Source: an uncultured Candidatus Saccharibacteria bacterium
Lineage (GTDB): Bacteria; Patescibacteriota; Minisyncoccia; Portnoybacterales; UBA2143
DNA length: 64,000 nucleotides
Assembly: GCA_964594965.1 (NCBI GenBank)
Contig: CAZQMX010000002.1
Span: 44,306 to 108,305 of the forward strand
Direction of reading: 5' to 3'
Positions 35,291 to 59,144 of this stretch are shown one piece after another. The notes under the pieces are model-generated. The model did no database searches and had not been told where the DNA came from. It saw only the letters and a list, made by a program, of their open reading frames with translations. The position numbers were made by a program, and so were the translations under genes. Each line of letters begins with the position of its first letter. Position 1 is the stretch's first letter.

Positions 35291-35440
35291 CTCGACTCGT
35301 TCCTCGTCTTCGACTACGCTCAGACTCGTCACTCGCTCGTGGCAAGCCACCATAATGTTTGTTATTAAGAAATATTCTCTTATTTAAGAGTCGAGTGTCC
35401 CGAGCGAAGCGAATCCCGAGCTAGTCGAGGGACAAATCAA
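35291..35440. repeat. composite GC-rich repeat region immediately 3' of tmRNA
   Basis: ctcgactcgttcctcgtcttcgactacgctcagactcg ... gtcccgagcgaagcgaatcccgagctagtcgaggg; shares cgcttcgctcggga-type modules with family 1. Confidence 0.45.
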
Positions 35441-43767: not shown

Positions 43768-44028
43768 TTACTGATAAATCCTGTGGGTACCGACTGAATG
43801 AAAATAAATAACACCGTCCCCAGCAAACTCGAATACTATCCTGTATTTATAGCCGACCGAAAAAGACCAAAAGCCTCTAAATTTCCCAGAAAGTTTGTGG
43901 GTCTTTAATTTTTTATCAAAAGGATTTTGACGAAAAATATTTTCTTTCTCTTCCATTAATTTCTTAGCTTTATCGGGTAGCTTCCTGTATTCCCGATAAA
44001 ATTTAGGAGAATATATTATTTTGTCCAT
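43768..44028 (-). CDS. type II toxin-antitoxin toxin, RelE/ParE (YafQ-like) family
   Basis: 86 aa; HKLSGKFRGFWSFSVGYKYRIVFEF..DGVIYFHSVGTHRIY matches the RelE/ParE C-terminal beta-sheet pattern; immediately downstream of a small RHH-like gene. Confidence 0.65.
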   Translation of the reverse strand: MDKIIYSPKFYREYRKLPDKAKKLMEEKENIFRQNPFDKKLKTHKLSGKFRGFWSFSVGYKYRIVFEFAGDGVIYFHSVGTHRIYQ

Positions 44029-44430: not shown

Positions 44431-45762
44431 ATGGGGACGAGTGGGTCAGCTAATGATGAGTGGGTTGAATTGTATAACAGCGCCGGTGAAGAAGTTGATT
44501 TAACCGGCTGGGCTTTGAAAGCGGTTGATGGAATACCGGAAATAGGTTTATCAGGAACAATATCCCCTCAGGGATATTTTTTACTTGAACGAACCGATGA
44601 TACCAGTGCCCCCGATGTTGTGGCTGATTTAATCTATGTTGGCGCTCTGTCCAATACCGGAGAAGAATTAGGGCTCTATGACAGTGGGAATAATTTAATT
44701 GATTCAATTGATGCTTCTTCTGGCTGGGATTTTGGCGATAATTCAACCAAACAAACTATAGAAAAAACTGATTCTGGCTGGCAGACCAGTTTAGAAATTG
44801 GTGGAACGCCCAAAGCAGAAAACAGCAATCAGGAAGAATCAGGAGAATCAACCAGCGACGGAACCCCTTCATTTAAGCCGGCAAGTGATTATCCGCCAAC
44901 TGCCAATGCCGGACCGGATATTACTGCTCTGGTCGGACAGGAAATATTTTTTGACGGCAGTCAGTCATCTGATCCGGACTGGGATAAATTAAATTTTTTC
45001 TGGAATTTTGGCAATGGAGCAACCAGTACCCAGGAAAAAATTACTCACGCCTATGATTATCCCGGTCAATACATTGTTTCTCTTTCTGTTGAAGATGATA
45101 AATTCACCCATATTGATATTGCTCTGATTAATATCTATTCCGAATCGGTTGTGATTAGTGAATTTGACCCTAACAACAACTGGGTTGAATTGTATAATCC
45201 GAAGGAGGAAATTGCTAATTTAACTGGTTGGAAATTAAATGATTTCACTTTTCCGGAAAACACCTTTGTTGCTCCGAATCAATTCCTTGTTTTAAATCAT
45301 CAATCCAATTCCAATTCAATCCAACTTTTTTATCCTGATGGCTCTTTGGCCAGTCAAGTTGATTATTCTGAAAAAAAAGAAGGTTCCTGTATTGCTTTTG
45401 ACGGCAATGACTACTTTTGGACAAAAATTCCGACTCCTTCCGCAACTAATATTATTAGTTCAACCGGTCTGGAAAACGGAAACCAAAAGATTCTGAATAA
45501 TCCGGTCATAAAACAAAGCCGGGAAATTCCTAACCCGGATAATTCAGTTATTAATCTCGCTCAAAGTAGTAATCTTTCTGTTCTCGAGTCGGATGATATG
45601 ATAGAAGATAATCCGTATTCTCAGCAATCAGCTTCTTTATCTCAAACCGCTTCTTCAAGCCAGAAATCCAAATTAATTTTAATCATTTCAATTATCATTT
45701 CCGGTTCTCTTTTAGTCAGTTGGGGCCTGATTTTAATCAAAAACAGGGTCAAAACTCATTGA
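44431..45762 (+). CDS. cell-surface protein: lamin-tail domain - PKD domain - lamin-tail domain - C-terminal TM anchor; N-terminus probably extends upstream
   Basis: LINEIAWMGTSGSANDEWVELYN and SEFDPNNNWVELYNP are LTD signatures. PTANAGPDITALVGQEIFFDGSQSSDPDWDKLNFFWNFGNGAT is PKD-like. C-terminal hydrophobic helix. The in-frame upstream region (from 44299) encodes a hydrophobic signal-like stretch with no ATG. Confidence 0.75.
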   Translation: MGTSGSANDEWVELYNSAGEEVDLTGWALKAVDGIPEIGLSGTISPQGYFLLERTDDTSAPDVVADLIYVGALSNTGEELGLYDSGNNLIDSIDASSGWDFGDNSTKQTIEKTDSGWQTSLEIGGTPKAENSNQEESGESTSDGTPSFKPASDYPPTANAGPDITALVGQEIFFDGSQSSDPDWDKLNFFWNFGNGATSTQEKITHAYDYPGQYIVSLSVEDDKFTHIDIALINIYSESVVISEFDPNNNWVELYNPKEEIANLTGWKLNDFTFPENTFVAPNQFLVLNHQSNSNSIQLFYPDGSLASQVDYSEKKEGSCIAFDGNDYFWTKIPTPSATNIISSTGLENGNQKILNNPVIKQSREIPNPDNSVINLAQSSNLSVLESDDMIEDNPYSQQSASLSQTASSSQKSKLILIISIIISGSLLVSWGLILIKNRVKTH

Positions 45763-45819
45763 CACTGACTCTTTGTCAATAGTATCATTAGTAGAGGAGG
45801 CTTTTTTAATATACATACT

Positions 45820-46362
45820 ATGTCCGGTCATTCAAAATGGTCTTCAATTAAACACAAAAAAGCAATTACCGACGCCAGACGGGGTAAGATTTTTTCTAAA
45901 ATATCCCGTTTGATTAGCGTTGCTGCTAAAGAAAAAGGCGGTGATCCGGAAAGTAATTCTAAATTAAGATCGGCTATTGAACAGGCCCGTCAGGTCAATA
46001 TGCCCAAAAGCAATATTGAGAAAGCGATTAAAAAAGGAACTGGCCAGGTCAAAGGGGCTCAAATGGAAGAAATTATCTATGAGGCCTATGGCCCTTCAGG
46101 CATCGCTTTAATTATTACCGGCATCACTGATAACAAGAACCGGGCAACAGCTGAAATCAGACACATCTTAACCAAATTTGATGGAAAGCTGGCTCAGGTT
46201 GGCAGTGTCCGATATATGTTTAATAAAAAAGAGGAGGACTGGGAACCAAAATATCCTGTTGAAATTGCTGACGAAAAAACAAAAAAAAGACTGGAAAAAC
46301 TTTTTGAATCCCTGGATGAAAATGATGATGTCCAGGAAATCTATTCTAATTTAAAAATGTGA
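45820..46362 (+). CDS. yebC: YebC/PmpR family transcriptional regulator (short form)
   Basis: MSGHSKWSSIKHKKAITDARRGKIFSKISR canonical YebC N-terminus. Confidence 0.8.
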   Translation: MSGHSKWSSIKHKKAITDARRGKIFSKISRLISVAAKEKGGDPESNSKLRSAIEQARQVNMPKSNIEKAIKKGTGQVKGAQMEEIIYEAYGPSGIALIITGITDNKNRATAEIRHILTKFDGKLAQVGSVRYMFNKKEEDWEPKYPVEIADEKTKKRLEKLFESLDENDDVQEIYSNLKM

Positions 46363-47045
46363 CTATCTCTAAGGCAAATAAAATAAATTCGGGAAAGAAG
46401 TATTCCGAGAATTGGAGGAAAAAAGTAAGTAAAGGGTGGTTTAAAAAAGAAGGCATTCCTTGGAATAAAAGCAAAAAGATGCCTATGGAGACAAGGAGAA
46501 AATTAAGTAGAGCCCTTAAGGGACGCAAGGCTTGGAATAAGGGAAAAACAATGCCGGAAGAAGTAAAAAAGAAGTTGAGTGAACTTCTTAAAGGAAAGCG
46601 TCGTTCACCCGAGACAGAATTTAAAAAAGGACAATATAAAGGAGACGGGAACCCAGCCAAAAGAATGGAAATAAGAAGAAAAATAAGTGAAGCCAAAAAA
46701 GGAAAACCACACTTCAATCAAAGAGGAAGAAATCACGGAAACTGGAAAGGCGGGATTACTCCTAAAAACGAAAAAATCAGGAAAACTCTAGAATATAAAT
46801 TATGGAGAGAAGCTGTCTTTGCTAGAGACAATTGGAGTTGTCGAAAATGTAGAAAAAGAGGAAGTAAATTAGCTTCACATCATCTCTATAACTTCGCCGA
46901 TTTCGCCAGATCACGAACCTCGATTGAAAATGGAATTACCCTTTGTGAAAAATGTTATAGAGAATTCCATAAAGTTTATGGCTTAAAGAGGAATACAAAA
47001 GAAAAATTCGAAGAGTTTTTAAGTTTGCCCAATCGTTATAAATAG
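46359..47045 (+). CDS. HNH homing-type endonuclease with NUMOD3 DNA-binding repeats
   Basis: Four to five W/GNKGK...MPEE/TRRK NUMOD3-like repeats, then HNH core CRKCRKRGSKLASHHLYNF...NGITLCEKCYREFH. ATGA overlap with the yebC stop. Confidence 0.75.
   Translation: MTISKANKINSGKKYSENWRKKVSKGWFKKEGIPWNKSKKMPMETRRKLSRALKGRKAWNKGKTMPEEVKKKLSELLKGKRRSPETEFKKGQYKGDGNPAKRMEIRRKISEAKKGKPHFNQRGRNHGNWKGGITPKNEKIRKTLEYKLWREAVFARDNWSCRKCRKRGSKLASHHLYNFADFARSRTSIENGITLCEKCYREFHKVYGLKRNTKEKFEEFLSLPNRYK
46359..47045 (+). mobile_element. free-standing HNH endonuclease gene inserted between yebC and ruvC
   Basis: yebC-ruvC are normally adjacent; an HNH-NUMOD gene sits exactly between them. Confidence 0.5.
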
Positions 47046-47069
47046 ATAATTAAAATATATTTCATAAAC

Positions 47070-47546
47070 ATGACTATCTTAGGCGTAGACCCGGGAGTAG
47101 CCCGTGTAGGGTATGGTTTAGTTAAAAAAACATCAAATAATAATTTAAAACTGATTGACTATAATTGTATTGAAACCGATAAAGAATTACCGATTGCCCA
47201 GCGACTTAGCCAGATAGATAAACAATTGAAAAAGATAATCAAAGAAAACAAACCAGAACAGGTAGCTGTCGAAGATATTTTCTTTTTTAAGAATCTTAAA
47301 ACCGTAATTGCTGTTAGTCAGGCCCGGGGTGTTATTCTGGCCAGAGCGGCTAAAATGAGAATTCCTGTTATTGAATACACTCCCCTTCAGATTAAACAGG
47401 CCGTGACAAGTTACGGCCGGGCGGATAAAACCCAGGTTCAAAAAATGGTTAAATTGCTTTTAAAATTAAAACAAATTCCCAAGCCGGATGACGCTGCCGA
47501 CGCGCTGGCAACAGCCATCTGCTGCGCTCATTCTGTTTGTCAATAA
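47070..47546 (+). CDS. ruvC: Holliday junction resolvase RuvC
   Basis: MTILGVDPGVARVGYGLV start and catalytic acidic residues (VEDIFFFKN, DAADALA). Confidence 0.85.
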   Translation: MTILGVDPGVARVGYGLVKKTSNNNLKLIDYNCIETDKELPIAQRLSQIDKQLKKIIKENKPEQVAVEDIFFFKNLKTVIAVSQARGVILARAAKMRIPVIEYTPLQIKQAVTSYGRADKTQVQKMVKLLLKLKQIPKPDDAADALATAICCAHSVCQ

Positions 47547-47547
47547 A

Positions 47548-48210
47548 ATGTCATTTATCAGTCAATATTTAATCAATCAGGGAATGCCTGAGGAAACATT
47601 AATTCTTCTTTTAATGCTGCCAATTGTGGCAACCATTATTGCCTTTGCCCGCCAGGTCATTGGCATTAAGGGCTTTGGCATTTACACCCCTTTAATCATT
47701 TCTTTTGCTTTTTTAGCGACTGGTTTAAGATATGGCCTGGCTCTTTTTCTGATAATTCTCCTGGTCGGGACGATTATGAGGTTAGTTGTTAAAAAATTCC
47801 GCCTTCTCTATCTTCCCCGAATGGCAATTGTTTTAACAGCGGTTGCCGTTGTTGTTATTGCTCTTTTTCCCCTCGGAGCATATTTTGACCGAAATGGTCT
47901 GATTGGCGCTTCGATTCTAGCTATTCTAATTATGACAACCCTGGTTGAAAAATTTATTGTCGCTCAGATTGAAAGGGGTGCTCGGGGAGCAATCCTTTTA
48001 ACAACCGAAACTCTTTTTCTTTCCGTCATTTCCTTCTTTGTTATCAGCTGGATCTGGCTCCAAGGATTTGTCTTAATTTACCCTGCCTGGATTATTCTGG
48101 CTGCTGTTTTAGCCAATATTCTTTTAGGCAAATGGACCGGTCTTCGTTTAACTGAATACTTCCGTTTTAAGGAAGTTATCAAACATGCTGAAATTTCTGG
48201 AAAAAAGTAA
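47548..48210 (+). CDS. 7-TM integral membrane protein (first gene of the ATP-grasp operon)
   Basis: Start at MSFISQYL (the ORF-track start 47488 overlaps ruvC). Seven hydrophobic helices, no soluble domain. 26-nt overlap with the next gene. Confidence 0.55.
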   Translation: MSFISQYLINQGMPEETLILLLMLPIVATIIAFARQVIGIKGFGIYTPLIISFAFLATGLRYGLALFLIILLVGTIMRLVVKKFRLLYLPRMAIVLTAVAVVVIALFPLGAYFDRNGLIGASILAILIMTTLVEKFIVAQIERGARGAILLTTETLFLSVISFFVISWIWLQGFVLIYPAWIILAAVLANILLGKWTGLRLTEYFRFKEVIKHAEISGKK

Positions 48211-49513
48211 ATACGTTCTGGGATTAAATGCCCGCAATCTGACTTATCTCCGGCCCTCCAATAGTTCGAGGGCTGTTCGGATTGCTGATAACAAGCTTTT
48301 AGCCAAGAGGATTTTGAAAAAAGCTGGCTTGCCGGTTTTGGATACTCACGCCACCATTTCTGACTCAAAAGAATTAAGGGAGTTTGACTGGAATTCCTTG
48401 CCGCCAACCTTTGTTTTGAAACCTAATCGGGGTCTGGGCGGTGAAGGCATTATCATTGTTTACGGCAAAAAAAAGAAAGCTCCTTATCCCTGGGTCAGGG
48501 CAGACCGGAGAACGGTTGAAATTGAAGACCTCGAAGATCACACCCAGAATATTCTGGATGGAACCTATTCTTTAACCGGTTTGCCTGATGTTGCCTTTTT
48601 TGAAGAAAGAGTCAAATTAATTAAACTCTTAAAGCCGTATTCTTTTAGAGGAATTCCTGATATCCGCATTATTGTCTATAACTCTGTTCCGGTTATGGCG
48701 GAAATGCGCTTACCAACCCAGGAATCAGGCGGTAAAGCCAATCTTCATTTAGGCGGCATTGGTGTTGGTATTGATATGGGCAATGGTATTACTACAACTG
48801 CTATTCAAAGAGACCGTTTGATTGAATACGCTCCTGGAACCCGACTTCCCCTTTCAGGAATTCATATTCCTGATTGGAAAGAAGTTCTTCGAATGGCAAT
48901 TTACGCCCAGCAGGCAACCCGAATTGGATTCCTCGGCATTGACATTGCTATTGACCGGGATAAGGGACCAATGATCCTGGAATTAAATGTCAGGCCGGGC
49001 CTATCAATCCAGATTGCTAATTTGACTCCTTTGGGAGATCGCCTCCAAAGGGTTAAAGGCCTTAAAATTAAAACTATTAATAAGGGGGTTAAAATTGCCC
49101 AGGATCTTTTTGGCGGTGAAATCGAGGAAGAACTTGAAGAAATCTCTGGCCGGAAAGTAATTGGCATTAACGAACCAATTGAAATTCTGGACAATGATGA
49201 AAACAAACATCCAACCATGGCTAAAATTGATACCGGCGCCTACCGGACAACAATTTGCCAGACCCTGGCCGATAAATTAAATCTGAATAAGATTATTAGC
49301 CACAAGAAAGTCAGAGGAGCATTAGGGATTGAAGAAAGACCGATTATTAACCTCTCTTTTATTTTAGATAAAAGACTAGTCACAACCGAAGCTTTTGTCG
49401 CTGACCGGAGCGAGATGAAATATGATATTATCGTCGGAAGAAAAGATTTGAAAAGGTTTTTGGTTGATCCGGCTAAGAACGTCTTTATGCGGGGGAAAGG
49501 ACGAGTTAGTTAA
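48185..49513 (+). CDS. fusion protein: RimK-related alpha-L-glutamate-ligase-like ATP-grasp domain (N) + retropepsin-like aspartic protease domain (C; RimB/PF05618-like)
   Basis: N-terminus VLGLNARNLTYLRP...IADNKLLAKRILKKAGLPV matches the alpha-L-glutamate ligase-related family pattern (GMN-RN--YI...ADDKLLTK-LA--AG-PVP). C-terminus has KIDTGAYRTTI (D-T-G-A at 49229..49240) plus a second half with IIVGRKDL, typical of retropepsin-like protease. Confidence 0.7.
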   Translation: MLKFLEKSKYVLGLNARNLTYLRPSNSSRAVRIADNKLLAKRILKKAGLPVLDTHATISDSKELREFDWNSLPPTFVLKPNRGLGGEGIIIVYGKKKKAPYPWVRADRRTVEIEDLEDHTQNILDGTYSLTGLPDVAFFEERVKLIKLLKPYSFRGIPDIRIIVYNSVPVMAEMRLPTQESGGKANLHLGGIGVGIDMGNGITTTAIQRDRLIEYAPGTRLPLSGIHIPDWKEVLRMAIYAQQATRIGFLGIDIAIDRDKGPMILELNVRPGLSIQIANLTPLGDRLQRVKGLKIKTINKGVKIAQDLFGGEIEEELEEISGRKVIGINEPIEILDNDENKHPTMAKIDTGAYRTTICQTLADKLNLNKIISHKKVRGALGIEERPIINLSFILDKRLVTTEAFVADRSEMKYDIIVGRKDLKRFLVDPAKNVFMRGKGRVS

Positions 49514-49515
49514 TT

Positions 49516-51009
49516 ATGCTTATCAAAGACCTAGCCTCTCTAAAAGAATACTTTTCTCAGATTAAAACTCCGATATTTGGCGCCGGGGTCTATGTTTTTA
49601 ACCGGCTTGGCCTGGAAGATATCTATTCCAATTACCGGATTCTGGCCCTGCGCTATAGTTTGGATACCAAACTAATTGAAAAAGGCATTAAGGTTCTGTC
49701 TTTGGAAAAGGGAATGGGAACCAGGCATATCAGAGAGCCAAGAAATGCCACCACCGTTATTAGCCATTCTAAAACAAAAGAATACCTTAAGAAATTCCAA
49801 AATCCGGCTATTCTGGTTTATCAGCCGTCTAAAAAAATGGAAGAGGTTTGTCAGGAAAATGGATGGGAATTACTTAACAATCCGACAAGTTTTGGCAAAG
49901 ATCTATTGGAAAACAAAATCAAATTCAGAAGAATCTTAAAAGAATTAGGTATTGCTGTTCCGCCCGGAAAAATTGCTTCAGCTTCCAAACTTCATTACGG
50001 GCATTTGATTAATAGGTATGGGTTGCCTTTTGTTATCCAGCATCCAACCAAGGGCGGCGGCAAAGGAACTTTTTTCATCAACAACAAAGAAGATTTTGAC
50101 CAGGCCTACAAGAAACTTCATAAGAAATGGGACGAAGATAATGAAAAAGAAGTCACTCCGCCGGATGAAGTTATTGTTGCCCAGTTTATCCAGGGTTCTT
50201 CCCCTTCAATTACCGCCTGCGTTACAAAACATGGCGTTCTTTCAACCAATCTTCAGTATCAGATTCTTGATGCTCCGAAGTTATATAATCCGGAAAAGGG
50301 TTCTGGTCTTTTCTGCGGTCATGACTGGACAAGTTCCAGGTTTTCTGATTCAATCAATTACCAGGCCTACGAAGCTGTTGAAAAAATCGGCCAGTATTTC
50401 AAAGAGCTGGGCTACAAGGGAATTTTCGGCTTAGATTTTGTCCTTGACGAAAAAAAAGAAAAACTCTACATTGTTGAATGTAATCCCCGCTTTCTTGGTT
50501 CTTACCCGGTTATTAACATGGCTCAGTTAATAAACAACGAGCCGCCAATTCTGGCCTTTCATGTTTTGGAGTTTTTAGGAAATGATTACCAGATTGATAA
50601 AAATGAAATTAATTACCAAATGCGAAGAGAAAAAATCGGCGCTCAGATGATTTTGCATAATTTAACAACCAAATGGGCCAGAAATCACAAGCAAATTAAG
50701 GCCGGGGTTTACAAATTAAGGAAAAACAAATTAAAATACATCCGGGAGGGGTATGATTTAAAGCATTTAAGAGAAAAGGAAGAATTTCTTTTAGCTGACG
50801 GGGTTTCATTAAAACATTCCCATTTTAGTCCTAATCGCCGGCTTTGCCGGATCCTGACTCTTAATCAATGCCTTGCTGATGATTACAAGAATCTTAATCC
50901 CTGGGCAAAGCAGGTATCTGAAACAGTCTATTCTGCCTTTGAAATGAAACCAATCAAGTTTATTAAACTCAAAAAATTCTTTTTTCCTAATCTTTTAGCT
51001 AAAGGTTAG
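49516..51009 (+). CDS. ATP-grasp superfamily ligase with N-terminal pre-ATP-grasp domain (uncharacterized subfamily)
   Basis: KIKFRRILKELGIAVPPGKI...GLPFVIQHPTKGGGKGTFFINNKEDFDQAYKKL...VIVAQFIQG...GIFGLDFVLDEKKEKLYIVECNPRF. 2-nt gap from the upstream gene. Confidence 0.6.
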   Translation: MLIKDLASLKEYFSQIKTPIFGAGVYVFNRLGLEDIYSNYRILALRYSLDTKLIEKGIKVLSLEKGMGTRHIREPRNATTVISHSKTKEYLKKFQNPAILVYQPSKKMEEVCQENGWELLNNPTSFGKDLLENKIKFRRILKELGIAVPPGKIASASKLHYGHLINRYGLPFVIQHPTKGGGKGTFFINNKEDFDQAYKKLHKKWDEDNEKEVTPPDEVIVAQFIQGSSPSITACVTKHGVLSTNLQYQILDAPKLYNPEKGSGLFCGHDWTSSRFSDSINYQAYEAVEKIGQYFKELGYKGIFGLDFVLDEKKEKLYIVECNPRFLGSYPVINMAQLINNEPPILAFHVLEFLGNDYQIDKNEINYQMRREKIGAQMILHNLTTKWARNHKQIKAGVYKLRKNKLKYIREGYDLKHLREKEEFLLADGVSLKHSHFSPNRRLCRILTLNQCLADDYKNLNPWAKQVSETVYSAFEMKPIKFIKLKKFFFPNLLAKG

Positions 51010-51014
51010 GCTCC

Positions 51015-52043
51015 ATGATTACATACTTTAATACAAAAAAAGAGATTAATCTCAAAGAATTTATCGGCCGGGGGGGTCGTTTTTTAATTCTGCATTTAAG
51101 GGAACTTAAAAAAAGGAATATTGATTGTCAGGTTCTTGTCCAGAAAAGAAAAGACAGGGATGATGTTCTTTTCTTGAAAATTAGAAAAGAAGGCAAGACC
51201 AGATGGCTTTCTCCTCAAAAAGGATATTTCAATACCAAGCAAAGCTGCGAACTGGCCCTTCACAAAGACCTGACTTACAAGATTCTTGAATCAGTTAATT
51301 TGCCTGTTCCTCAAAACTACAAGATTGAAAAAATCAGCCAATTAAAGAAAATAGATTTGTCTTATCCGGTTGTGGTTAAACCAACTGACCAGGCCAAGGG
51401 CAAAGGTGTCCTAATTGGCATTAAAGACAGGGAAGAATTGAAAAAATCAGTTAAAAGACTGCTTAAAAAATATTCTTCTTTGATTGTTGAAGAATACATT
51501 CCGGGAAATGATTATCGTCTTTTAATTCTGGATAAAAAACTCCTGGGAGCGATAAAAAGAACGCCGCCAAAAATTAAAGCTGATGGAAAAAGAACCATCC
51601 GGGAATTAATCAGAAAGGAAAACAAAAAAAGATATGATAGGCCAATTGCCTTTAAGCCCTACTCCAAAACACTGGAAATTGATTTAGAAGTTAAGAGATG
51701 CTTAAGAGAGCAAGGTTATTCCCTTAATTCAATTCCTAAAAAGGATGAAAAAATTATTGTCAGGAGAAATACTAATTTCTCGAGCGGTGGAGAAACATTA
51801 GATGTGACTAAAAAAGTTCATCCGGAGAATATTAAAATCGCCAAAAAGGCGATTAAATCTCTCGGACTTAAATTCGGCGGAGTTGATTTCGTTGCTGAAA
51901 AAATATCAGAGCCGATTAGCCGGAACAATGGTCGGATTGTTGAAATTAACGGTATTCCTGGAATTTGGATACATCATTTTCCAAATCACGGCCAAAGAAG
52001 AAACATTGCCAAGAAAATTATTGATTACTTGTTTGAAAACTAA
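51015..52043 (+). CDS. stand-alone cyanophycin-synthetase-N-domain-like / RimK-like ATP-grasp ligase
   Basis: YPVVVKPTDQAKGKGVLIGI...DYRLLILDKKLLGAIKRTPPKIKADGKRTIRELI...NFSSGGETLDVTKKVHPENIKIAKKAIKSLGLKFGGVDFV closely parallels the CphA N-terminal ATP-grasp motifs (DYRLLVV..KVVAA..RxPAxVxGDG..TIxELI ... NLSTGGxAxDVTDxVHPxN...GLDIAGIDF). Confidence 0.7.
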   Translation: MITYFNTKKEINLKEFIGRGGRFLILHLRELKKRNIDCQVLVQKRKDRDDVLFLKIRKEGKTRWLSPQKGYFNTKQSCELALHKDLTYKILESVNLPVPQNYKIEKISQLKKIDLSYPVVVKPTDQAKGKGVLIGIKDREELKKSVKRLLKKYSSLIVEEYIPGNDYRLLILDKKLLGAIKRTPPKIKADGKRTIRELIRKENKKRYDRPIAFKPYSKTLEIDLEVKRCLREQGYSLNSIPKKDEKIIVRRNTNFSSGGETLDVTKKVHPENIKIAKKAIKSLGLKFGGVDFVAEKISEPISRNNGRIVEINGIPGIWIHHFPNHGQRRNIAKKIIDYLFEN

Positions 52044-52063
52044 AAGTGTAATGTCTTGCTTTT

Positions 52064-52237
52064 TTAGGCCTTGTGAAAAAGGATCGCCAGTATGAAAGAA
52101 ACCACTGCGGCAAGAGCGTAGATTAATATCCCGGATGAATTGCCGTTAGCTATGACATGTCCGGAAATTGCCCCTACCCAGATGATTCCAAGAGTAAGCC
52201 AAAACATTGTAAAAAACTTACTAGTTTTTTTATTCAT
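52064..52237 (-). CDS. possible small 2-TM membrane protein (57 aa), below ORF-track threshold
   Basis: Reverse-strand ATG at 52237 to TAA at 52064: MNKKTSKFFTMFWLTLGIIWVGAISGHVIANGNSSGILIYALAAVVSFILAILFHKA. Confidence 0.25.
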   Translation of the reverse strand: MNKKTSKFFTMFWLTLGIIWVGAISGHVIANGNSSGILIYALAAVVSFILAILFHKA

Positions 52238-52294
52238 ATTCCTATTATACCACCTTTGGAATAGGAACCAATCAAATTAACTGGGGAAAACTTT

Positions 52295-52328
52295 AACGGC
52301 AGACCTGTTTAAGTCTGCCGTCTTTTTA
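52295..52328. terminator. bidirectional rho-independent terminator (acggcagac-ctgtttaa-gtctgccgt + ttttta)
   Basis: 9-bp GC-rich stem with U-tail on + strand and A-run upstream; sits between the convergent ATP-grasp operon and the 52335..52955 gene. Confidence 0.65.
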
Positions 52329-52334
52329 GATGAG

Positions 52335-52955
52335 TTAGTCAGGAACATTGCAATACGCGTAAGCAGCGCTTACAGCCTCCTGTATTTCTTCGAGACGCTC
52401 CTTTACCACGCGCCTCTTGGCCTCTTTTAACCTGGCGAGGAAAAAATCAGTCCAGAATTCGGGCATAGACGTTAGTTCGTCTTTATGGCGACCTGGCTCC
52501 AAGAGATCGAACGGATTACGGGTCGTGCCACCCCCTCCCCATAAATGGACTACATTGGCTTTGCCATCTTTTGTCACTAACGGCATTCCATTTTCATCGT
52601 ATTCCGGCAGAGTTGTAATCTGGACCCAAATCCGATAAGGAATACTAAAGACTTCTGTTGTATCAAAGACAATCAGAGAAACATTGGCTAATAAGGGTAA
52701 ATCTATGGACTCTAATCCAACAAGGACTGGCCAGATAAAGCTTTCTTCAAATAAAACAGTTCCTTTTTCATCGGTCGTTTTGTACTCTGCCATCTTTTCA
52801 CTATCAAACAGAGCAGTTGGAACCTGAGGATTCTGCCGAAGCGGCAAATGATTATGATCGGTATAAAACGCTATTTTCATGGTGTCTTCCCTCCTTTTCG
52901 GTATTCTGATTTGAAGAACATTAATTTGAGACAAGGATACAATAATGTTTGTCAA
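52335..52955 (-). CDS. hypothetical protein, compositionally atypical (higher GC); probable start MKIAFYTDHNHL (~52880)
   Basis: Clear ORF with markedly higher G+C than surrounding genes; no recognisable motif. Confidence 0.4.
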   Translation of the reverse strand: MTNIIVSLSQINVLQIRIPKRREDTMKIAFYTDHNHLPLRQNPQVPTALFDSEKMAEYKTTDEKGTVLFEESFIWPVLVGLESIDLPLLANVSLIVFDTTEVFSIPYRIWVQITTLPEYDENGMPLVTKDGKANVVHLWGGGGTTRNPFDLLEPGRHKDELTSMPEFWTDFFLARLKEAKRRVVKERLEEIQEAVSAAYAYCNVPD

Positions 52956-53048
52956 AAGTAAACAAAAAAAAAACCGATTAGGGTTGGTTTGTAATCACCA
53001 AAAGAGTTTAAAGTATAATTTTTAGCAGTTCAGGAAATCGTTCTGTCT

Positions 53049-53573
53049 TCATATCTCCATAGGTAAAATGACCCATATTTTTGAACTGATGTATTTCTGC
53101 TTTAGAAAAGGTTTTTTTATTCTGTCTACTGATTCTTTTACTCCTTCTATATCTTCGTCCTCTGATATAAGTATATGGATTTCTTTAGCTCTTTCTTGAA
53201 TACCAGAATCAATAGAAAAATCAAAGAAAGATGATGTTCTTCTTTTGTTTGGATCCAGCCAGGGCGCAACCAGAACAAGTTTGCTTATTTTAACCTTGTT
53301 CTCGGTTAGCCATCGTACCAAAAATCCTCCACCAAAACTATACCCAACCAATATCGTGTCTTCGCCAATATTAAATCGCTCAAATTCCTTTACCCATTTT
53401 TGGTAGTTTGGGTTATAAGCCCTTGGCATTTCGGGCGTCTGCGTAAATACATCTTTTATTAATAATTGTTTTTGTAGCCAAGGAAGCCAATGACTATTAG
53501 AAAGCGATGGGTAAGTATCACTAAAATACTCTTCCCTGTCACAACTACCATGAATAAGTATCGCATTTTTCAT
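53049..53573 (-). CDS. alpha/beta hydrolase, RBBP9/YdeN-like serine hydrolase family
   Basis: AILIHGSCD...ILVGYSFGGGFLVRWL (GxSxG nucleophile elbow) ...LVLVAPWLDP; ~175 aa as in PF06821. Confidence 0.65.
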   Translation of the reverse strand: MKNAILIHGSCDREEYFSDTYPSLSNSHWLPWLQKQLLIKDVFTQTPEMPRAYNPNYQKWVKEFERFNIGEDTILVGYSFGGGFLVRWLTENKVKISKLVLVAPWLDPNKRRTSSFFDFSIDSGIQERAKEIHILISEDEDIEGVKESVDRIKKPFLKQKYISSKIWVILPMEI

Positions 53574-53579
53574 ACTCCA

Positions 53580-53604
53580 ATTATACCCTCCCCAAACAAA
53601 AAAA
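53580..53604 (-). promoter_or_regulatory. repeated promoter cassette (minus-strand sense TTTTTTTGTTTGGGGAGGGTATAAT) upstream of the hydrolase gene
   Basis: TATAAT located ~12 nt before the GGAG SD/ATG of 53049..53573; identical 25-nt cassette recurs at 54391..54415. Confidence 0.4.
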
Positions 53605-53622
53605 CCAATTGGGATTGGTTTT
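53601..53622 (-). terminator. terminator hairpin (aaaaccaat-cccaatt-ggtttt + T-run on minus strand) after membrane-protein gene
   Basis: Same hairpin sequence recurs at 56023..56044 downstream of mpg. Confidence 0.5.
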
Positions 53623-53668
53623 GGGACTTAAAACTAGTAACTGTAATTTACAATTAATTTGTTTCTCT

Positions 53669-54361
53669 TTACTTTCTTATCATCTTATACCTATCTACAT
53701 TTATCCAAAATTCATAAACTACTCCCGAAAACATCCCCCAGGCAAAAAACCATACTATTTCTTCAATTGGAATTTTAGCAAAAGCGACACCAGACAAGCC
53801 ATCTTGCACCCAAAGCCTATTAATCGCATCAGGATATATTTTTAACCAGGCCACATAAACTATCAATATCATAAATACCATTAAGACTGCACTCATTAAA
53901 GAATCTCTTCTTAAATCCTTGTCAATAAATAATAATACGACTGAACTAATAAACAAGGGGGTAATACTTGCCCAGATTGTATTTATTCCTAATCGCTTTA
54001 AGATTAAAAACAATATTATCATACCAGCCACGATTAGGATTGTTTCTAGTGTCCTTTTTCTTCCTACATCATGTTTTCTGGCAAATACAATCTCATAAAA
54101 CACACTGCCGATACCGCCAATAAAAAATCCGAATAAAATCTCCTCTATACCAACATAGGCGCCAAGAATCTTAATTGGCAAAACATACTCTGGGCTCCAA
54201 TAATCTTTAGCGAAAAACAATATTTGACTTATTGGCGCAACAGGAGCGACCAAGATGCTTACAAATAATTGTTGTTTTCTAAGGTCTTTTCTTTTTAAGA
54301 AAAACAAAAACCATACTAATCCAAGAAATAGGGTGGCGAAGAAATAGGCGTAATTATACAT
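53669..54361 (-). CDS. polytopic membrane protein, hypothetical (6-7 TM)
   Basis: 230 aa hydrophobic ORF; preceded by the promoter cassette at 54391..54415. Confidence 0.45.
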   Translation of the reverse strand: MYNYAYFFATLFLGLVWFLFFLKRKDLRKQQLFVSILVAPVAPISQILFFAKDYWSPEYVLPIKILGAYVGIEEILFGFFIGGIGSVFYEIVFARKHDVGRKRTLETILIVAGMIILFLILKRLGINTIWASITPLFISSVVLLFIDKDLRRDSLMSAVLMVFMILIVYVAWLKIYPDAINRLWVQDGLSGVAFAKIPIEEIVWFFAWGMFSGVVYEFWINVDRYKMIRK

Positions 54362-54390
54362 TTTCTAGCTTTTATTTTATTTCCTATATT

Positions 54391-54415
54391 ATTATACCCT
54401 CCCCAAACAAAAAAA
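54391..54415 (-). promoter_or_regulatory. second copy of promoter cassette TTTTTTTGTTTGGGGAGGGTATAAT (minus-strand sense)
   Basis: Identical to the 53580..53604 copy; precedes the 53669..54361 start. Confidence 0.4.
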
Positions 54416-54435
54416 CCAATCAGAAACCAATATAA

Positions 54436-54467
54436 AGAAGGGGGCTCTCAATGGAACTCCCTTCTTC
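54436..54467 (-). terminator. terminator hairpin after pncB (aagaaggg-(13 nt)-cccttctt on minus strand, then T-rich)
   Basis: 8-bp stem immediately downstream of the pncB stop. Confidence 0.45.
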
Positions 54468-54485
54468 GGTGTTTAAATAAAATAA

Positions 54486-55913
54486 CTAATTATATAACGC
54501 TTCTCTCCTTATTTCCTTGAGCAAGCCTGTTACTGTTCTGCTGTATTTAATCCTATTCCACGGATTAAGATTGTCCAGCGTTAACAACTCTGAAGGCAGC
54601 ATTACAAGCTGTTCGTTGATGTAATCCCTGATCTGCGACAAATCAGGCAATTCGTAAGAAACAATTCCGTTTTCGATCATCGGAATAAGGAGCGGTTCGC
54701 CCAGGTCTTCGCCAACGAGACCAACTACATCAGAAGAAAATTTTCCGTCCTGAAAAATTCTGTAAACTTGCTTGATGCCCGGATAGGACTGTTTTTCCGT
54801 AGAGAGCTTGGCACAATACTTAACTCCGTCCTTCCCGTTAATAGCTGCAAGCTTGTAAACAATCTCCAATTTCGGGTCGTCTGTGACTACCCCCACTTCG
54901 GTCACAACAATAAAGCAATCAACCGGCGCTTTTTGCCTGACTATTTTTTGTATCTTCCATTCATCAAGATTGGTAGCTACGATAATCTTTGTTTCTTTGA
55001 GGTCGGCCTGATCAAGTTCAGCCCGGGCATAACGGGACAATGTAACCAAATTACCCGAATCGATAATAACAGCGAATAATTGTTCCCCTCGTTCGGCCAT
55101 TTCCTGACCGACCTGTATTGCATTAGACAGTCCCTGGATCACATCGTAAGTATCTATCATTAGGGCTGCCGATTGGCCGAATCGTTTTGTAATTTCCCGC
55201 ATAGCAGTCAGTTCGTCATCAAACGAAACAATGTAGTTATGACAGGCCAGATTGATAGCCGGCTCCATGCCAAACTGATACTTTTTGGAAAACCCAGGCA
55301 TTGCCGTTCCACCAGCCGTACCGACCAGGTAAGAAGCCCGGCCGCATTTATAGGATGATTCAAATCCATGCGTCCGTTGACTAACCGAACCGACAATATC
55401 TGTCCCTTGGGCAGCAATTCTGCTTCGAATCATCTTTGATGTAAAGACCGTATTGCTGTGCACAGCAGCGATCAAAAATGAACCAATCAGGCTACCTTCA
55501 ATAATCGGAGCTGTAACACGGACAACCGGTTCCTGTGGAAAGAATATTGTTCCTTCAGGCATAGCATAAACATCTCCTGTAAACCGAACATTAGACAGAT
55601 AGTCGGCGAATCCTTCGGTGATAGTGCCGGCTTCGAGAAGATAGGCAATAGAATCATCATCGTATTGCCACTTGCTGAGGGCAGATACTATTTCTTCAAT
55701 ACCGCCCAAAACCAGGAAATTCCTGTTATAGGGTATGTCCCTGACCACCAGATCAAAGGTAGCAATCCGTTCATGTTGATTGAGTTCATACCAAACAGAG
55801 CAATTGGAGAAGATATAGGCCAGCTCAAAGAGCGGCAAATCATCTTGAACAAACAAATGGCTCTTTGGTATTCCAAGCTCTCCTCTAGACCAGTAATTCT
55901 CTGACTTTATCAT
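54486..55913 (-). CDS. pncB: nicotinate phosphoribosyltransferase family protein
   Basis: 475 aa; strong SD aaggaggg. Overall similarity pattern of the NAPRTase family; somewhat higher GC than housekeeping neighbours. Confidence 0.65.
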   Translation of the reverse strand: MIKSENYWSRGELGIPKSHLFVQDDLPLFELAYIFSNCSVWYELNQHERIATFDLVVRDIPYNRNFLVLGGIEEIVSALSKWQYDDDSIAYLLEAGTITEGFADYLSNVRFTGDVYAMPEGTIFFPQEPVVRVTAPIIEGSLIGSFLIAAVHSNTVFTSKMIRSRIAAQGTDIVGSVSQRTHGFESSYKCGRASYLVGTAGGTAMPGFSKKYQFGMEPAINLACHNYIVSFDDELTAMREITKRFGQSAALMIDTYDVIQGLSNAIQVGQEMAERGEQLFAVIIDSGNLVTLSRYARAELDQADLKETKIIVATNLDEWKIQKIVRQKAPVDCFIVVTEVGVVTDDPKLEIVYKLAAINGKDGVKYCAKLSTEKQSYPGIKQVYRIFQDGKFSSDVVGLVGEDLGEPLLIPMIENGIVSYELPDLSQIRDYINEQLVMLPSELLTLDNLNPWNRIKYSRTVTGLLKEIRREALYN

Positions 55914-56022
55914 AATTCCCTCCTTTATTGGATTATAGGTTGTCGGATTATATCAATATGCGGTTGTTAATTTAACTAAAAAACAGAATAACATAATATA
56001 CTATTCTGTCAAAATAAAATAA

Positions 56023-56044
56023 AAAACCAATTGGGATTGGTTTT
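56023..56044 (-). terminator. terminator hairpin after mpg (same aaaaccaat..attggtttt module)
   Basis: Identical hairpin module to 53601..53622. Confidence 0.5.
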
Positions 56045-56072
56045 GGGCAGAGGAATTTGCGAAAACTCTTTT

Positions 56073-56684
56073 TTAGTTGCGATACAGGAATCTTAATTTA
56101 CGCTGACTCCCATCAAGTTTTGGACTGATACCAATTCTTTTGTCAGATAATATTTCCTTGGGGCTTATAACAACGCCTCTGTCTTCAATAAATATGGTAT
56201 TTCCTGTTAAATTTTTGCCGTACAAATTGATATCAATGCCAAACGACTTGCATAGATTTCCCGGTGACTTGGTTAGATCATTAACCCGTCCAACCGGCTT
56301 CCCAAAATTACCCTTCATTATTTCTATGCCTTCCTCAGGAATAACTGCTCTAATAAAGACGACTTCTGGAATATTTTTCTTATTAACAACCAGAGCAAGC
56401 TGATGATAAATCCCGTAAACAAGATAAACGTAGGCATATCCACCATCCTGATACATAACTTCTGTTCGTCTAGTTCTTTTATTCCCGTGTGAGACTTTAT
56501 CAGAAAAAGCTGGATAAGCCTCAACCTCAATTATTTTTCCAGAAACCTTCCCTTTTGGGGAATTAAATACTAAATATTTTCCCAGAAATTCCTTTGCTAT
56601 ATCCCGAGCTGACCGCTGATAAAAAGATTTTTGTAATTTAGGCATCTTTGGGTATGGGTTCATGGGGTTGCTTCTTGGGTACAT
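56073..56684 (-). CDS. mpg: DNA-3-methyladenine glycosylase (Mpg/AAG family); probable start MPKLQKSFYQR (~56645)
   Basis: FYQRSARDIAKEFLGKYLV...GKIIEVEAY...RTRRTEVMYQDGGYAYVYLVYGIYH...FIRAV matches PF02245 conserved blocks. Confidence 0.75.
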   Translation of the reverse strand: MYPRSNPMNPYPKMPKLQKSFYQRSARDIAKEFLGKYLVFNSPKGKVSGKIIEVEAYPAFSDKVSHGNKRTRRTEVMYQDGGYAYVYLVYGIYHQLALVVNKKNIPEVVFIRAVIPEEGIEIMKGNFGKPVGRVNDLTKSPGNLCKSFGIDINLYGKNLTGNTIFIEDRGVVISPKEILSDKRIGISPKLDGSQRKLRFLYRN

Positions 56685-58423: not shown

Positions 58424-58491
58424 CTTTCATTAAAGGGGGTCACGAAAGCCTCCGTTTTTAAATATTAATGACTAAAAGCCTTGTATTTGAT

Positions 58492-59130
58492 TTATTCATT
58501 TTTAGGTATGGGTTCATGGGGTTGGGTGGGGTTATTGAGTCTGTCTACATCAGGAGGAAAGATTAATCCTGTTATTATGGTAAATATAGCTACGCCAATC
58601 AGGGTCGCGATTAATAGACGGAGTGACCATCTTCTTAACCAATCCCACTGCTTTTGTTTTTTTGTGATATTTTCTTCGAAGATTTTACGAAAACCTTCTT
58701 TTTCTGTATTGTTTAATTCTTCTATGTCCTTTTCAAATTTACCGATATCATGGTGTGCTCTAGAGATAACTTTTAATACATCTTGTCGGATAAACTTGGG
58801 TATAAATTCTGCTCGTTCGTCGGCAATTGCACGATTTGCCTCTAAAACTTTGTTTTTATATATAATTTCAAAAATAATAGATACTATCGGAAAAACTAGT
58901 ATCAAAACAAAAAGCTGAAAGGGTAAACTATGACCTTCTTCTCTTAAAAACAGGAAAGACATCGCGCCAAAAATACCAACGTCCAGAGAGATAAGAAGAT
59001 TAGAGAATTTGTAAGTTTTTTCCATCGCGAACTCATCCCTCATTTTTAAATTCTCGTCTTTATAAAATTCCAGACGTTTAATAGCGTTATCAAAGTATTT
59101 TTCTTTAAGTTCGTTGATAGGAGAAGTCAC
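58492..59130 (-). CDS. hypothetical membrane protein (3 TM)
   Basis: 212 aa ORF with three hydrophobic helices; no family motif. Confidence 0.4.
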   Translation of the reverse strand: MTSPINELKEKYFDNAIKRLEFYKDENLKMRDEFAMEKTYKFSNLLISLDVGIFGAMSFLFLREEGHSLPFQLFVLILVFPIVSIIFEIIYKNKVLEANRAIADERAEFIPKFIRQDVLKVISRAHHDIGKFEKDIEELNNTEKEGFRKIFEENITKKQKQWDWLRRWSLRLLIATLIGVAIFTIITGLIFPPDVDRLNNPTQPHEPIPKNE

Positions 59131-59144
59131 AAAATCTTATAAAT

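What the first reader, a model, noticed from the sequence alone, without database searches (positions are those of the whole stretch)
47548..52043. Tightly coupled operon: 7-TM protein + RimK-like ATP-grasp::retropepsin-like protease fusion + two further ATP-grasp ligases (one CphA-N-like)
Four + strand genes are spaced by -26, +2 and +5 nt, so they are almost certainly co-translated.

The first product is a pure 7-helix membrane protein. The second combines a RimK-related alpha-L-glutamate-ligase-like ATP-grasp domain with a C-terminal retropepsin-like domain (KIDTGAYRTTI). The third is an ATP-grasp enzyme with an N-terminal pre-ATP-grasp domain. The fourth is a stand-alone ATP-grasp whose motifs (DYRLL..., GDGKRTIRELI, NFSSGGETLDVTKKVHPEN, GLKFGGVDF) parallel the cyanophycin synthetase N-terminal (aspartate-adding) domain.

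Established context: gene neighbourhoods pairing a RimK-related ligase, a 7-TM protein (often fused to an inactive transglutaminase) and a PF05618 retropepsin-like protease are known (Iyer et al. 2009). In Pseudomonas the RimK/RimB pair adds and trims poly-Glu tails on ribosomal protein S6.

Here the ligase and protease are fused, the 7-TM protein is free-standing, and two extra amidoligases are present. That suggests a membrane-associated system building and trimming a non-ribosomal amino-acid tail or polymer (polyglutamate or cyanophycin-like), possibly on a protein substrate. This exact architecture is not one I recognise as characterised.
Basis: partly seen in the sequence, partly recalled or inferred. 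Interest (0 to 1): 0.85.

Follow-up and report, generated by a model that had tools for sequence, protein, structure and literature searches.

The report
Membrane-linked peptide ligase–protease operon
This is a real, tightly packed four-gene operon from a tiny groundwater bacterium (Patescibacteria) that couples a membrane protein to three amino-acid-joining enzymes and a built-in protease, a previously undescribed variant of the poorly understood Rlo/Rim systems that probably builds and trims a short acidic peptide chain at the membrane.

Summary
The four + strand ORFs, their spacing (-26, +2, +5 nt) and all the domain calls were reproduced.

- g1 is a bare PF14402 7TM protein, equivalent to the C-terminal half of RloB.
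- g2 is an RloC-type ATP-grasp ligase (TIGR02291) fused to a RimB/RloA-type retropepsin with an intact DTG motif.
- g3 is a Patescibacteria-specific three-domain ATP-grasp.
- g4 is a stand-alone copy of the cyanophycin-synthetase G domain.
- None of the ligases reaches the curated cut-off of a housekeeping family.

In 98 related loci the 7TM gene lies directly upstream of the ligase in 88 of 91. It is followed by 0-3 variable extra ligases (RimK-, CphA-G-, g3-type, rarely CphA-M-like) and often a MATCAP-like carboxypeptidase.

Natural fusions link 7TM+ligase, ligase+retropepsin+MATCAP and g2+g3. Where MATCAP is fused, the retropepsin active site decays.

Best reading: a conserved core (7TM plus ligase::protease) with interchangeable accessory ligases, which builds and trims a non-ribosomal, probably Glu/Asp-rich, peptide chain at the membrane. 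The product and target are unknown.

This is a new variant of a known kind (RloABC, RimK/RimB). Interest is moderate to high.

The parts
47548..48210 (+). g1: bare 7-TM membrane protein (220 aa), homologous to the C-terminal 7TM half of RloB; no transglutaminase domain
48185..49513 (+). g2: RloC-type ATP-grasp ligase fused to a C-terminal retropepsin (442 aa); overlaps g1 by 26 nt
48185..49084 (+). g2 ligase domain (residues 1-300)
   Evidence: PF14397, 2e-62. TIGR02291, 2e-76, 257 bits (cut-off 314). ATP-grasp invariants K79, D253, E266 and N268 are kept across 27 diverse relatives.
49157..49489 (+). g2 retropepsin domain (residues about 325-435); DTG Asp349 at 49229-49231; GRKD at residue 418
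   Evidence: PF05618, 31.3 bits (cut-off 27). Aligns with PDB 9g59/9g58 ('putative ATP-dependent zinc protease'), sharing K-x-DTGA, and with Ddi1. D(T/S)G is kept in 35 of 45 two-domain relatives.
49516..51009 (+). g3: three-domain ATP-grasp ligase (497 aa), accessory
51015..52043 (+). g4: stand-alone CphA G-domain-like ATP-grasp ligase (342 aa), accessory
   Evidence: TIGR02068 positions 207-472, 1.3e-79. PDB CphA1 7lgn, 2.3e-46. 9 of 11 functionally tested TeCphA1 G-domain residues are kept. This class is present in 27 of 63 loci.
52296..52321 (+). Terminator-like hairpin (9-bp stem, 6 GC pairs, T-run) after g4
   Evidence: consensus scan only.
47070..47546 (+). ruvC, conserved upstream neighbour; its stop is 1 nt before the g1 start (probable co-transcription, function unrelated)
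   Evidence: RuvC lies two genes upstream of the ligase in 68 of 78 loci.
45820..46362 (+). yebC/TACO1-family gene, conserved upstream neighbour and probable first gene of the transcription unit
   Evidence: Present in 56 of 69 loci.
45759..45788 (+). Promoter-like site TTGACA-18-TATCAT (11 of 12) upstream of yebC
   Evidence: consensus scan only.

Best explanation
The four genes are the distal part of a locus conserved across Patescibacteria.

Its core is a 7-TM membrane protein (g1) plus an RloC-type ATP-grasp amino-acid ligase fused to a RimB/RloA-type retropepsin (g2). The core is followed by interchangeable accessory ligases. Here these are a g3-type ligase and a CphA-G-type ligase (g4).

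Proposed mechanism:
1. g2 docks on the cytoplasmic face of g1.
2. Its ligase domain activates the C-terminal carboxylate of a growing peptide as an acyl-phosphate and adds amino acids one at a time, most likely Glu or Asp.
3. g3 and g4 add further residues. g4 probably adds an Asp-like acidic residue to a chain end.
4. The retropepsin domain, acting as a dimer between ligase subunits, cleaves the acidic chain. This limits its length or creates primers, and may stimulate the ligase as RimB stimulates RimK.
5. The 7TM protein anchors the process and may hand the product to the envelope.

Shown here: gene structure, families, conserved catalytic residues, adjacency, fusions and the peptidase swap.

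Inferred: chemistry, substrate identity, docking and export.
For: - Families and intact catalytic motifs.
- The 7TM gene lies directly upstream of the ligase in 88 of 91 loci spanning 43-81% identity. The module also occurs in a Woesebacteria contig with a different genomic context.
- Natural fusions: TGase+7TM+ligase, 7TM+ligase, g2+g3 and ligase+retropepsin+MATCAP.
- The ligase nearly always has a peptidase partner. D(T/S)G is kept in 35 of 45 ligase+retropepsin proteins but in only 3 of 41 proteins that also carry MATCAP. This argues that trimming is integral to the system.
- Of 63 loci with enough downstream sequence, 56 carry 1-3 extra ligase genes of varied classes, including CphA G-like and M-like genes.
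- g4 keeps both residues that bind the beta-carboxylate of aspartate in TeCphA1, R323 and N394.
- Literature: RimB and RloA cleave poly-Glu; RimB stimulates poly-Glu synthesis by RimK; loss of rloB or rloC suppresses the protease-less phenotype (PMC11957791, PMC12239564).
Against: - No product, substrate or interaction has been observed.
- The protease here is cytoplasmic (fused, no signal peptide). RloA is secreted, so the export step cannot simply be transferred from Pseudomonas.
- The 7TM fold has no solved relative that would indicate a channel.
- g2 scores below the TIGR02291 trusted cut-off (257 against 314 bits).
- In g4 the residue that binds the alpha-carboxylate of aspartate (R458) is Trp, and H267 is Lys.
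- Much of the synteny could reflect shared ancestry within one large clade.
Confidence: 0.45

Rival explanations
1. A protein 'tail code'. The ligases add, and the retropepsin and MATCAP-type peptidases remove, amino acids at the C-terminus of a specific protein. The target could be ribosomal protein S6 as for RimK, or another protein at the membrane. This would be analogous to tubulin tyrosination and glutamylation by TTL/TTLL ligases and detyrosination by MATCAP.
For: - RimK/RimB act on the S6 C-terminus (PMC11957791).
- MATCAP-family carboxypeptidases are fused to, or encoded next to, the ligase in about 50 of the 150 nearest representative clusters and in 10 of 63 loci.
- A neighbouring RimK-family ligase gives a weak TTL (PF03133) match in L005 (9.1e-05) and a faint one in L106.
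Against: - No candidate target was found.
- The g1 C-terminus is basic and variable.
- rpsF is not in the window.
- The model gives the near-obligatory 7TM partner no role.
- RimBK did not glutamylate P. fluorescens SBW25 RpsF in vitro.
Confidence: 0.25
2. Cell-envelope precursor modification. The ligases add amino acids to a peptidoglycan or other envelope precursor (side-chain or cross-bridge residues). The 7TM protein acts with the wall-synthesis machinery.
For: - A class A PBP lies within 7 genes downstream in 47 of 63 loci.
- GT4 glycosyltransferases occur in 5 loci and MurE/CphA-M-like ligases in 2.
- rlo mutants show morphology, beta-lactam and hypo-osmotic phenotypes.
- ATP-grasp D-aspartate ligases that modify peptidoglycan precursors are known (own knowledge).
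Against: - In the window the PBP is about 9 kb away, behind a block of opposite-strand genes. It is absent from the Woesebacteria locus.
- PBP adjacency may be inherited gene order, like yebC-ruvC.
- No Mur or Fem family membership was found for g2-g4.
- Cytoplasmic endo- and carboxy-peptidases are not expected in precursor synthesis.
Confidence: 0.12
3. Synthesis of a small di- or tripeptide metabolite, such as an osmolyte or a thiol like NAGGN or glutathione, that is exported or sensed through the 7TM protein.
For: g4 also matches the ATP-grasp halves of GshAB (3.5e-54) and of N-acetylglutaminylglutamine synthetase (2.5e-43). The Rlo name reflects an osmotic phenotype.
Against: - Both scores are far below the cut-offs (184 against 425 bits; 148 against 569 bits).
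- There is no GshA or GNAT partner.
- g4 is absent from most loci.
- An endopeptidase and a carboxypeptidase have no obvious role with a dipeptide.
Confidence: 0.08
4. The ATP-grasp genes are ordinary housekeeping enzymes (PurK, Ddl, biotin carboxylase, carbamoyl-phosphate synthase fragments) that happen to lie together.
Against: - All scores are 4- to 30-fold below the curated cut-offs.
- g3 is fused to g2 in some genomes.
- Adjacency is conserved in about 100 loci.
Confidence: 0.02

Closest known systems
RloABC operon of Pseudomonas aeruginosa (PMC12239564)
   Same: The same three building blocks are present. These are a TIGR02291-type ATP-grasp ligase (RloC), the PF14402 7TM domain (RloB) and a PF05618 retropepsin (RloA). 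They are encoded together and, by genetics in Pseudomonas, act in one pathway.
   Different: - Here the retropepsin is fused to the C-terminus of the ligase. It is therefore cytoplasmic, not secreted.
- The 7TM protein lacks the periplasmic inactive transglutaminase domain.
- One to three extra ligases are attached.
- The host is Patescibacteria, whereas the Rlo paper reports RloB as 96% Proteobacteria.
- g2 and g1 score below the RloC and RloB trusted cut-offs.
RimK/RimB and the RimBK hybrid (PMC11957791)
   Same: A cytoplasmic ATP-grasp alpha-L-glutamate ligase is paired with, or fused to, a retropepsin that cleaves poly-Glu and modulates the ligase.
   Different: - The ligase is not of the RimK family (47 bits against a 143-bit cut-off).
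- The domain order is reversed: ligase first, protease second.
- A 7TM partner is near-obligatory.
- No link to ribosomal protein S6 is known.
Cyanophycin synthetase CphA1 (G domain) and CphA2
   Same: g4 aligns over the whole G domain (E 2e-46 to solved CphA1). It keeps 9 of 11 residues shown by mutagenesis or structure to matter for catalysis and aspartate binding. Related loci also carry stand-alone M-domain-like genes.
   Different: - There is no N domain and no M domain in the window.
- H267 is Lys and R458 is Trp.
- g4 is an optional accessory of a different core system.
Tubulin tyrosination/glutamylation cycle (TTL/TTLL ligases with MATCAP)
   Same: This is an analogy of logic. ATP-grasp ligases that add amino acids to an acidic C-terminal tail are paired with MATCAP-family metallocarboxypeptidases. 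In relatives of this locus, PF08014 domains are fused to the ligase.
   Different: The window itself has no MATCAP gene. The ligases are not TTL-family members. No protein target is known.
Amidoligase neighbourhoods predicted by Iyer et al. 2009 (source of Pfam PF14397 and PF14402)
   Same: The association of a RimK-related ATP-grasp, a 7TM(-transglutaminase) protein and a PF05618 protease.
   Different: The paper is not in the library, so I could not check whether it lists the Patescibacteria fused architecture.

Membership tests
RloABC system | RloC-type ATP-grasp ligase (TIGR02291 rimK_rel_E_lig) | tested here: inconclusive
   By far the best family for g2 (2e-76, full length 8-294 against 9-294 of 317), but 257 bits is below the curated 314.2. 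It is a divergent relative.
RloABC system | RloB: periplasmic inactive transglutaminase fused to the 7TM domain | tested here: not met
   g1 matches only the 7TM part (NF052267 positions 312-507; 89 bits against a 900-bit cut-off; PF14402 passes). Of the related 7TM proteins, 74 of 81 are bare at about 220 aa.
RloABC system | RloA: secreted stand-alone retropepsin with a signal peptide | tested here: not met
   The retropepsin domain is present (PF05618, 31.3 bits against 27; DTG intact). It is the C-terminal domain of a cytoplasmic ligase. RloA1-3 models score 24-32 bits against cut-offs of 210-280.
RloABC system | Loss of the ligase or the 7TM protein suppresses the protease-less osmotic phenotype | not testable with these tools
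   This requires genetics; the organism is uncultured.
RimK/RimB (RimBK) | RimK-family alpha-L-glutamate ligase (TIGR00768) | tested here: not met
   g2 scores 47.2 bits and g4 57.2 bits against a cut-off of 143.4.
RimK/RimB (RimBK) | RimB-type endopeptidase; in the hybrid it sits N-terminal to RimK | tested here: not met
   NF052261 RimB scores 15.8 bits against 200. The domain order here is ligase then protease; RimBK has residues 1-163 as RimB.
RimK/RimB (RimBK) | [quoted passage not shown] | not testable with these tools
   No rpsF in the window (tblastn with E. coli S6). The rest of the genome is not available.
Cyanophycin synthetase CphA1 | N, G and M domains in one polypeptide | tested here: not met
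   g4 covers only model positions 207-472 (268 bits against 850). There is no Mur-ligase domain in the window. Separate M-like genes occur only in L037 and L077.
Cyanophycin synthetase CphA1 | G-domain catalytic and aspartate-binding residues (TeCphA1 E215, K261, H267, R309, R323, N394, S396, D431, E450, G456, R458) | tested here: inconclusive
   9 of 11 are identical; H267 is K and R458 is W. The same pattern holds in the three full-length g4 orthologues found (L003, L007, L009), except that E215 is D in one and G456 is S in all three.
Graspetide / RiPP ATP-grasp clusters | Precursor peptide gene plus a macrocyclase-type ATP-grasp | tested here: not met
   No intergenic space between g1 and g4. 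The only small ORF nearby is a 57-aa two-TM protein on the opposite strand. No graspetide maturase models hit g2-g4.
Housekeeping ATP-grasp enzymes (PurK, Ddl, biotin carboxylase, CPSase, GshB) | Score at or above the curated family cut-off | tested here: not met
   g3: NF005096 166 against 684, PurK 31.7 against 318, Ddl 29 against 243. g4: Ddl 52 against 243, GshAB 184 against 425.

The most novel reading that the evidence does not exclude
Much of the Patescibacteria carries, at a fixed chromosomal position, a modular writer/eraser machine. A membrane 7TM platform is joined to a core ligase::protease and a swappable cassette of 1-3 further amino-acid ligases, with specificity positions that differ between the CphA-G-type paralogues compared, plus MATCAP-type carboxypeptidases. 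The machine would synthesise lineage-specific, template-free heteropeptide chains. These would be either a bacterial counterpart of the tubulin tail code on a protein C-terminus, or a cyanophycin-like polymer delivered to the envelope. If so, ultra-small symbionts with almost no biosynthesis invest about 0.5% of their genome in a non-ribosomal peptide polymer of unknown function.
Probability: 0.25. Interest if true: 0.85.

Novelty: new variant of a known kind. Interest (0 to 1): 0.6.

Why it matters
The biochemical function of the Rlo system is an open question. [quoted passage not shown]

The Patescibacteria versions offer natural experiments:
- Fusions show that the 7TM protein, the ligase and the peptidase work as one physical unit.
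- A peptidase swap (retropepsin decaying when MATCAP is fused) shows that trimming is integral.
- Accessory ligases related to both halves of cyanophycin synthetase point to a peptide-polymer product.

The compact, soluble g2 protein is a tractable target for in vitro chemistry. The locus is also one of the more conserved non-housekeeping gene sets in genomes that have shed most biosynthesis, so its product is likely to matter for their biology.

Tried and rejected
- Iyer et al. 2009 (PMC3268129) is not in the library, so its neighbourhood descriptions could not be checked.
- A full-text search for PF14402, PF14397, 7TM_transglut, ATPgrasp_ST and DUF3541 found nothing relevant. A search combining CPR/Patescibacteria with ATP-grasp, RimK, retropepsin and cyanophycin found no description of this locus.
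- A PDB sequence search gave no solved relative of the g2 ligase domain.
- tblastn for S6, MATCAP and DUF3541 in the window found nothing.
- The idea that the ligase extends the g1 C-terminus was rejected as unsupported. That terminus is basic and poorly conserved.
- A RiPP/graspetide reading was rejected, because there is no precursor ORF.
- The 587-aa downstream protein was tested as a detached transglutaminase partner. It gives only a sub-threshold Transglut_core hit (E 0.011) and shows no similarity to the transglutaminase protein near the Woesebacteria module.
Breadth was recovered through the representative search and the metagenome scan.
Full report
**1. Observation**

ORF listing reproduces four + strand genes:
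- g1: 47548-48210
- g2: 48185-49513
- g3: 49516-51009
- g4: 51015-52043

The spacings are -26, +2 and +5 nt. Homologues align from the ATG at 47548, so that is the g1 start.

The ruvC stop codon ends 1 nt before the g1 start. The best promoter-like site in 45600-52500 (11 of 12 matches) precedes yebC at 45759-45788. The best terminator-like hairpin (9-bp stem) follows g4 at 52296-52321. These are consensus matches only. They suggest a yebC-(HNH)-ruvC-g1-g2-g3-g4 transcription unit, of which the finding is the distal four genes.

The sequence comes from a groundwater metagenome. The closest named relatives are Candidatus Portnoybacteria, Parcubacteria and Patescibacteria.

**2. What the proteins are**

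*g2* has an N-terminal ligase domain whose best family is TIGR02291 (2e-76; 257 bits, below the 314-bit cut-off). This is the family to which the Pseudomonas RloC-type 'alpha-L-glutamate ligase-like' proteins belong. Its RimK score is only 47 bits.
- The C-terminal domain passes PF05618 (31.3 bits against 27).
- It aligns with PDB 9g59 and 9g58, sharing the K-x-DTGA motif, and with Ddi1 retropepsins.
- Across 27 relatives at 33-56% identity, the ATP-grasp invariants are kept, including K79, D253, E266 and N268.

*g3* is a three-domain ATP-grasp.
- Homologues number 325. The 120 listed are about 500 aa, and the ones with a source name are all Patescibacteria.
- The model is very confident (pLDDT 91.8).
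- The fold therefore does not fix the substrate.

*g4* aligns along the whole G domain of solved cyanophycin synthetases (2.3e-46). Eleven TeCphA1 residues have published roles (PMC9427784). Of these, g4 keeps nine: E215, K261, R309, R323, N394, S396, D431, E450 and G456. It changes H267 to K and R458 to W.

No window ligase reaches the curated cut-off of PurK, Ddl, biotin carboxylase, carbamoyl-phosphate synthase, GshB or GshAB.

**3. Comparative evidence**

The g2 fusion is not an artefact. Of the 120 closest 90%-identity clusters, 112 carry both domains at about 440 aa.

Architecture of the 150 best 50%-identity representatives:

| Architecture | Count |
|---|---|
| ligase+retropepsin | 45 |
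| ligase+retropepsin+MATCAP, including versions with an undetectable retropepsin | about 50 |
| ligase alone | 45 |
| 7TM+ligase | 4 |
| carrying a g3-type domain | 4 |

Pfam confirms examples of each architecture. These include a TGase+7TM+ligase protein, and a cyanobacterial 7TM+ligase protein named by NCBI as from Oscillatoria.

Neighbourhood census over 98 loci from genome and metagenome scans:

| Feature | Loci |
|---|---|
| 7TM gene directly upstream of the ligase | 88 of 91 |
| ruvC two genes upstream | 68 of 78 |
| yebC upstream | 56 of 69 |
| class A PBP within seven genes downstream | 47 of 63 |

Extra ligase genes downstream (63 loci):

| Extra ligase genes | Loci |
|---|---|
| 0 | 7 |
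| 1 | 24 |
| 2 | 21 |
| 3 | 11 |

Accessory classes (63 loci):

| Class | Loci |
|---|---|
| RimK-family | 31 |
| CphA-G-like | 27 |
| g3-type | 17 |
| MATCAP | 10 |
| ligase paralogue | 8 |
| GT4 glycosyltransferase | 5 |
| DUF3541 | 3 |
| stand-alone CphA M-domain-like (TIGR02068 positions 481-860; 9.8e-62 in L037, 4.5e-58 in L077) | 2 |

A Woesebacteria contig has 7TM-ligase-MATCAP-RimK between uvrC and truB. The module therefore persists outside the yebC-ruvC context. This separates functional linkage from inherited gene order.

**4. The peptidase swap**

The alignment position of the catalytic D(T/S)G is intact in 35 of 45 two-domain proteins. It is intact in only 3 of 41 proteins that also carry a MATCAP domain. 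One caveat applies: divergent sequences may be misaligned.

Where MATCAP is a separate gene (L014, L015), DTG is intact.

I read this as one peptidase activity being required next to the ligase, supplied by either domain.

**5. Mechanism**

Published facts:
- RimB and RloA cleave poly-Glu.
- RimB binds RimK and stimulates its poly-alpha-Glu synthesis.
- The lethality of the rloA1-3 deletion mutant on salt-free medium is suppressed by deleting rloB or rloC (PMC11957791, PMC12239564).

Combined with the evidence above, the best-supported model is a membrane-anchored build-and-trim machine for a non-ribosomal, probably acidic, peptide chain.
- g2 provides the core polymerase and the length-limiting or primer-generating protease.
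- g3 and g4 provide lineage-specific additions.
- g4 likely adds an Asp-like residue to a chain end.

The topology is inferred from the fusions. The ligase follows the seventh helix, so the C-terminus of g1, with the invariant GKWTGLRLxEYxRF motif, is cytoplasmic. It is the likely docking site.

Whether the product is exported, stored or attached to a protein is not resolved. Unlike RloA, the protease here is cytoplasmic.

Rivals are set out separately: a protein tail code, envelope precursor modification, a small peptide metabolite, and housekeeping enzymes.

**6. Comparison with known systems and novelty**

The system shares all three building blocks with RloABC. It fails two of that system's defining features, the transglutaminase domain and the secreted protease.

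It resembles the RimBK hybrid in fusing ligase and retropepsin. It differs in ligase family and in having the opposite domain order.

g4 is a G-domain homologue, not a cyanophycin synthetase.

I found no description of this Patescibacteria locus in the searchable literature. The key 2009 survey could not be read.

I therefore class it as a new variant of a known kind.

**7. Verdict**

The classification and the functional linkage are well supported. The chemistry is inferred.
- Interest is 0.6. This is not a new category. It is a widespread, strongly conserved and unusually informative version of a system whose biochemistry is still unknown, and it offers clear experiments.

Noticed in passing
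window 46359-47045 (+): A 228-aa ORF with NUMOD3 motifs (PF07460, 2.4e-10) and a C-terminal Cys/His HNH-like motif sits between yebC and ruvC and overlaps the yebC stop by 4 nt. It looks like a free-standing homing endonuclease. In most of the 17 related genome loci yebC and ruvC are directly adjacent or nearly so. Some metagenome loci carry other small ORFs at that spot.
   Followed up: partly
related proteins P0249, P0252, P0272 and others; loci L018, L021: Triple fusions of ligase+retropepsin+MATCAP (about 800 aa) are as common as the two-domain form. Most of them have lost the retropepsin D(T/S)G motif. The 7TM partner in L018, L021 and L107 carries an N-terminal PKD domain in place of the transglutaminase.
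   Followed up: yes
L037 9480-10742 and L077 3364-4710: Stand-alone genes matching only the MurE-like M domain of cyanophycin synthetase (TIGR02068 positions about 480-860; 9.8e-62 and 4.5e-58) lie next to the ligase::retropepsin gene. Some loci therefore encode split CphA-like G and M activities.
   Followed up: partly
window 49516-51009 (g3); alignment A1: g3 homologues share an invariant GSGLFCGHDW motif (residues 262-271) and a strictly conserved extreme C-terminus ...LAKG (K496, G497 invariant in 43 sequences). A conserved C-terminal end is unusual and could be a handle for another ligase.
   Followed up: no
window 49100-49150 (g2 residues about 310-322): The linker between the ligase and the retropepsin is acidic (GGEIEEELEEISGRK). 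It is partly conserved in relatives, where Glu-rich stretches and a fairly well kept ISGK/R recur. Retropepsins of this family cut Glu runs, so self-processing at the linker is conceivable.
   Followed up: no
window 60901-63393 (+): A class A PBP (Transgly+Transpeptidase+Big_7) is present. In 47 of 63 related loci this gene follows the ligase cassette within a few genes. In the window it is displaced by about 9 kb of opposite-strand genes (52064-60317).
   Followed up: partly
window 56660-58423 (-): A 587-aa predicted membrane-anchored protein has a Glu/Lys-rich coiled region, a sub-threshold transglutaminase-core match (residues 334-388, E 0.011; motif GDCEDTSYLFASL...H) and Cys-rich C-terminal repeats (Y-x-DS-x-CTQ). 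It shows no detectable similarity to the transglutaminase protein near the Woesebacteria module.
   Followed up: partly
window 52064-52237 (-): A 57-aa ORF predicted to form two hydrophobic helices lies in the 290-nt gap between g4 and the convergent 206-aa gene. The 206-aa protein (52335-52955) has no Pfam match.
   Followed up: no
L019 10672-11607 (-), L023, L072: DUF3541 (PF12060) genes recur beside RimK-type ligases in three loci. One of these is the cyanobacterial 7TM+ligase locus. DUF3541 may be another accessory component.
   Followed up: partly
window 34949-35293 (+), 15963-16046 (+), 43768-44028 (-), 44431-45762 (+): A tmRNA (132 bits) and one tRNA are present. A RelE/ParE/YafQ-like toxin ORF abuts ruvB. 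A 443-aa LTD+PKD protein with a hydrophobic C-terminal segment lies just upstream of yebC.
   Followed up: no
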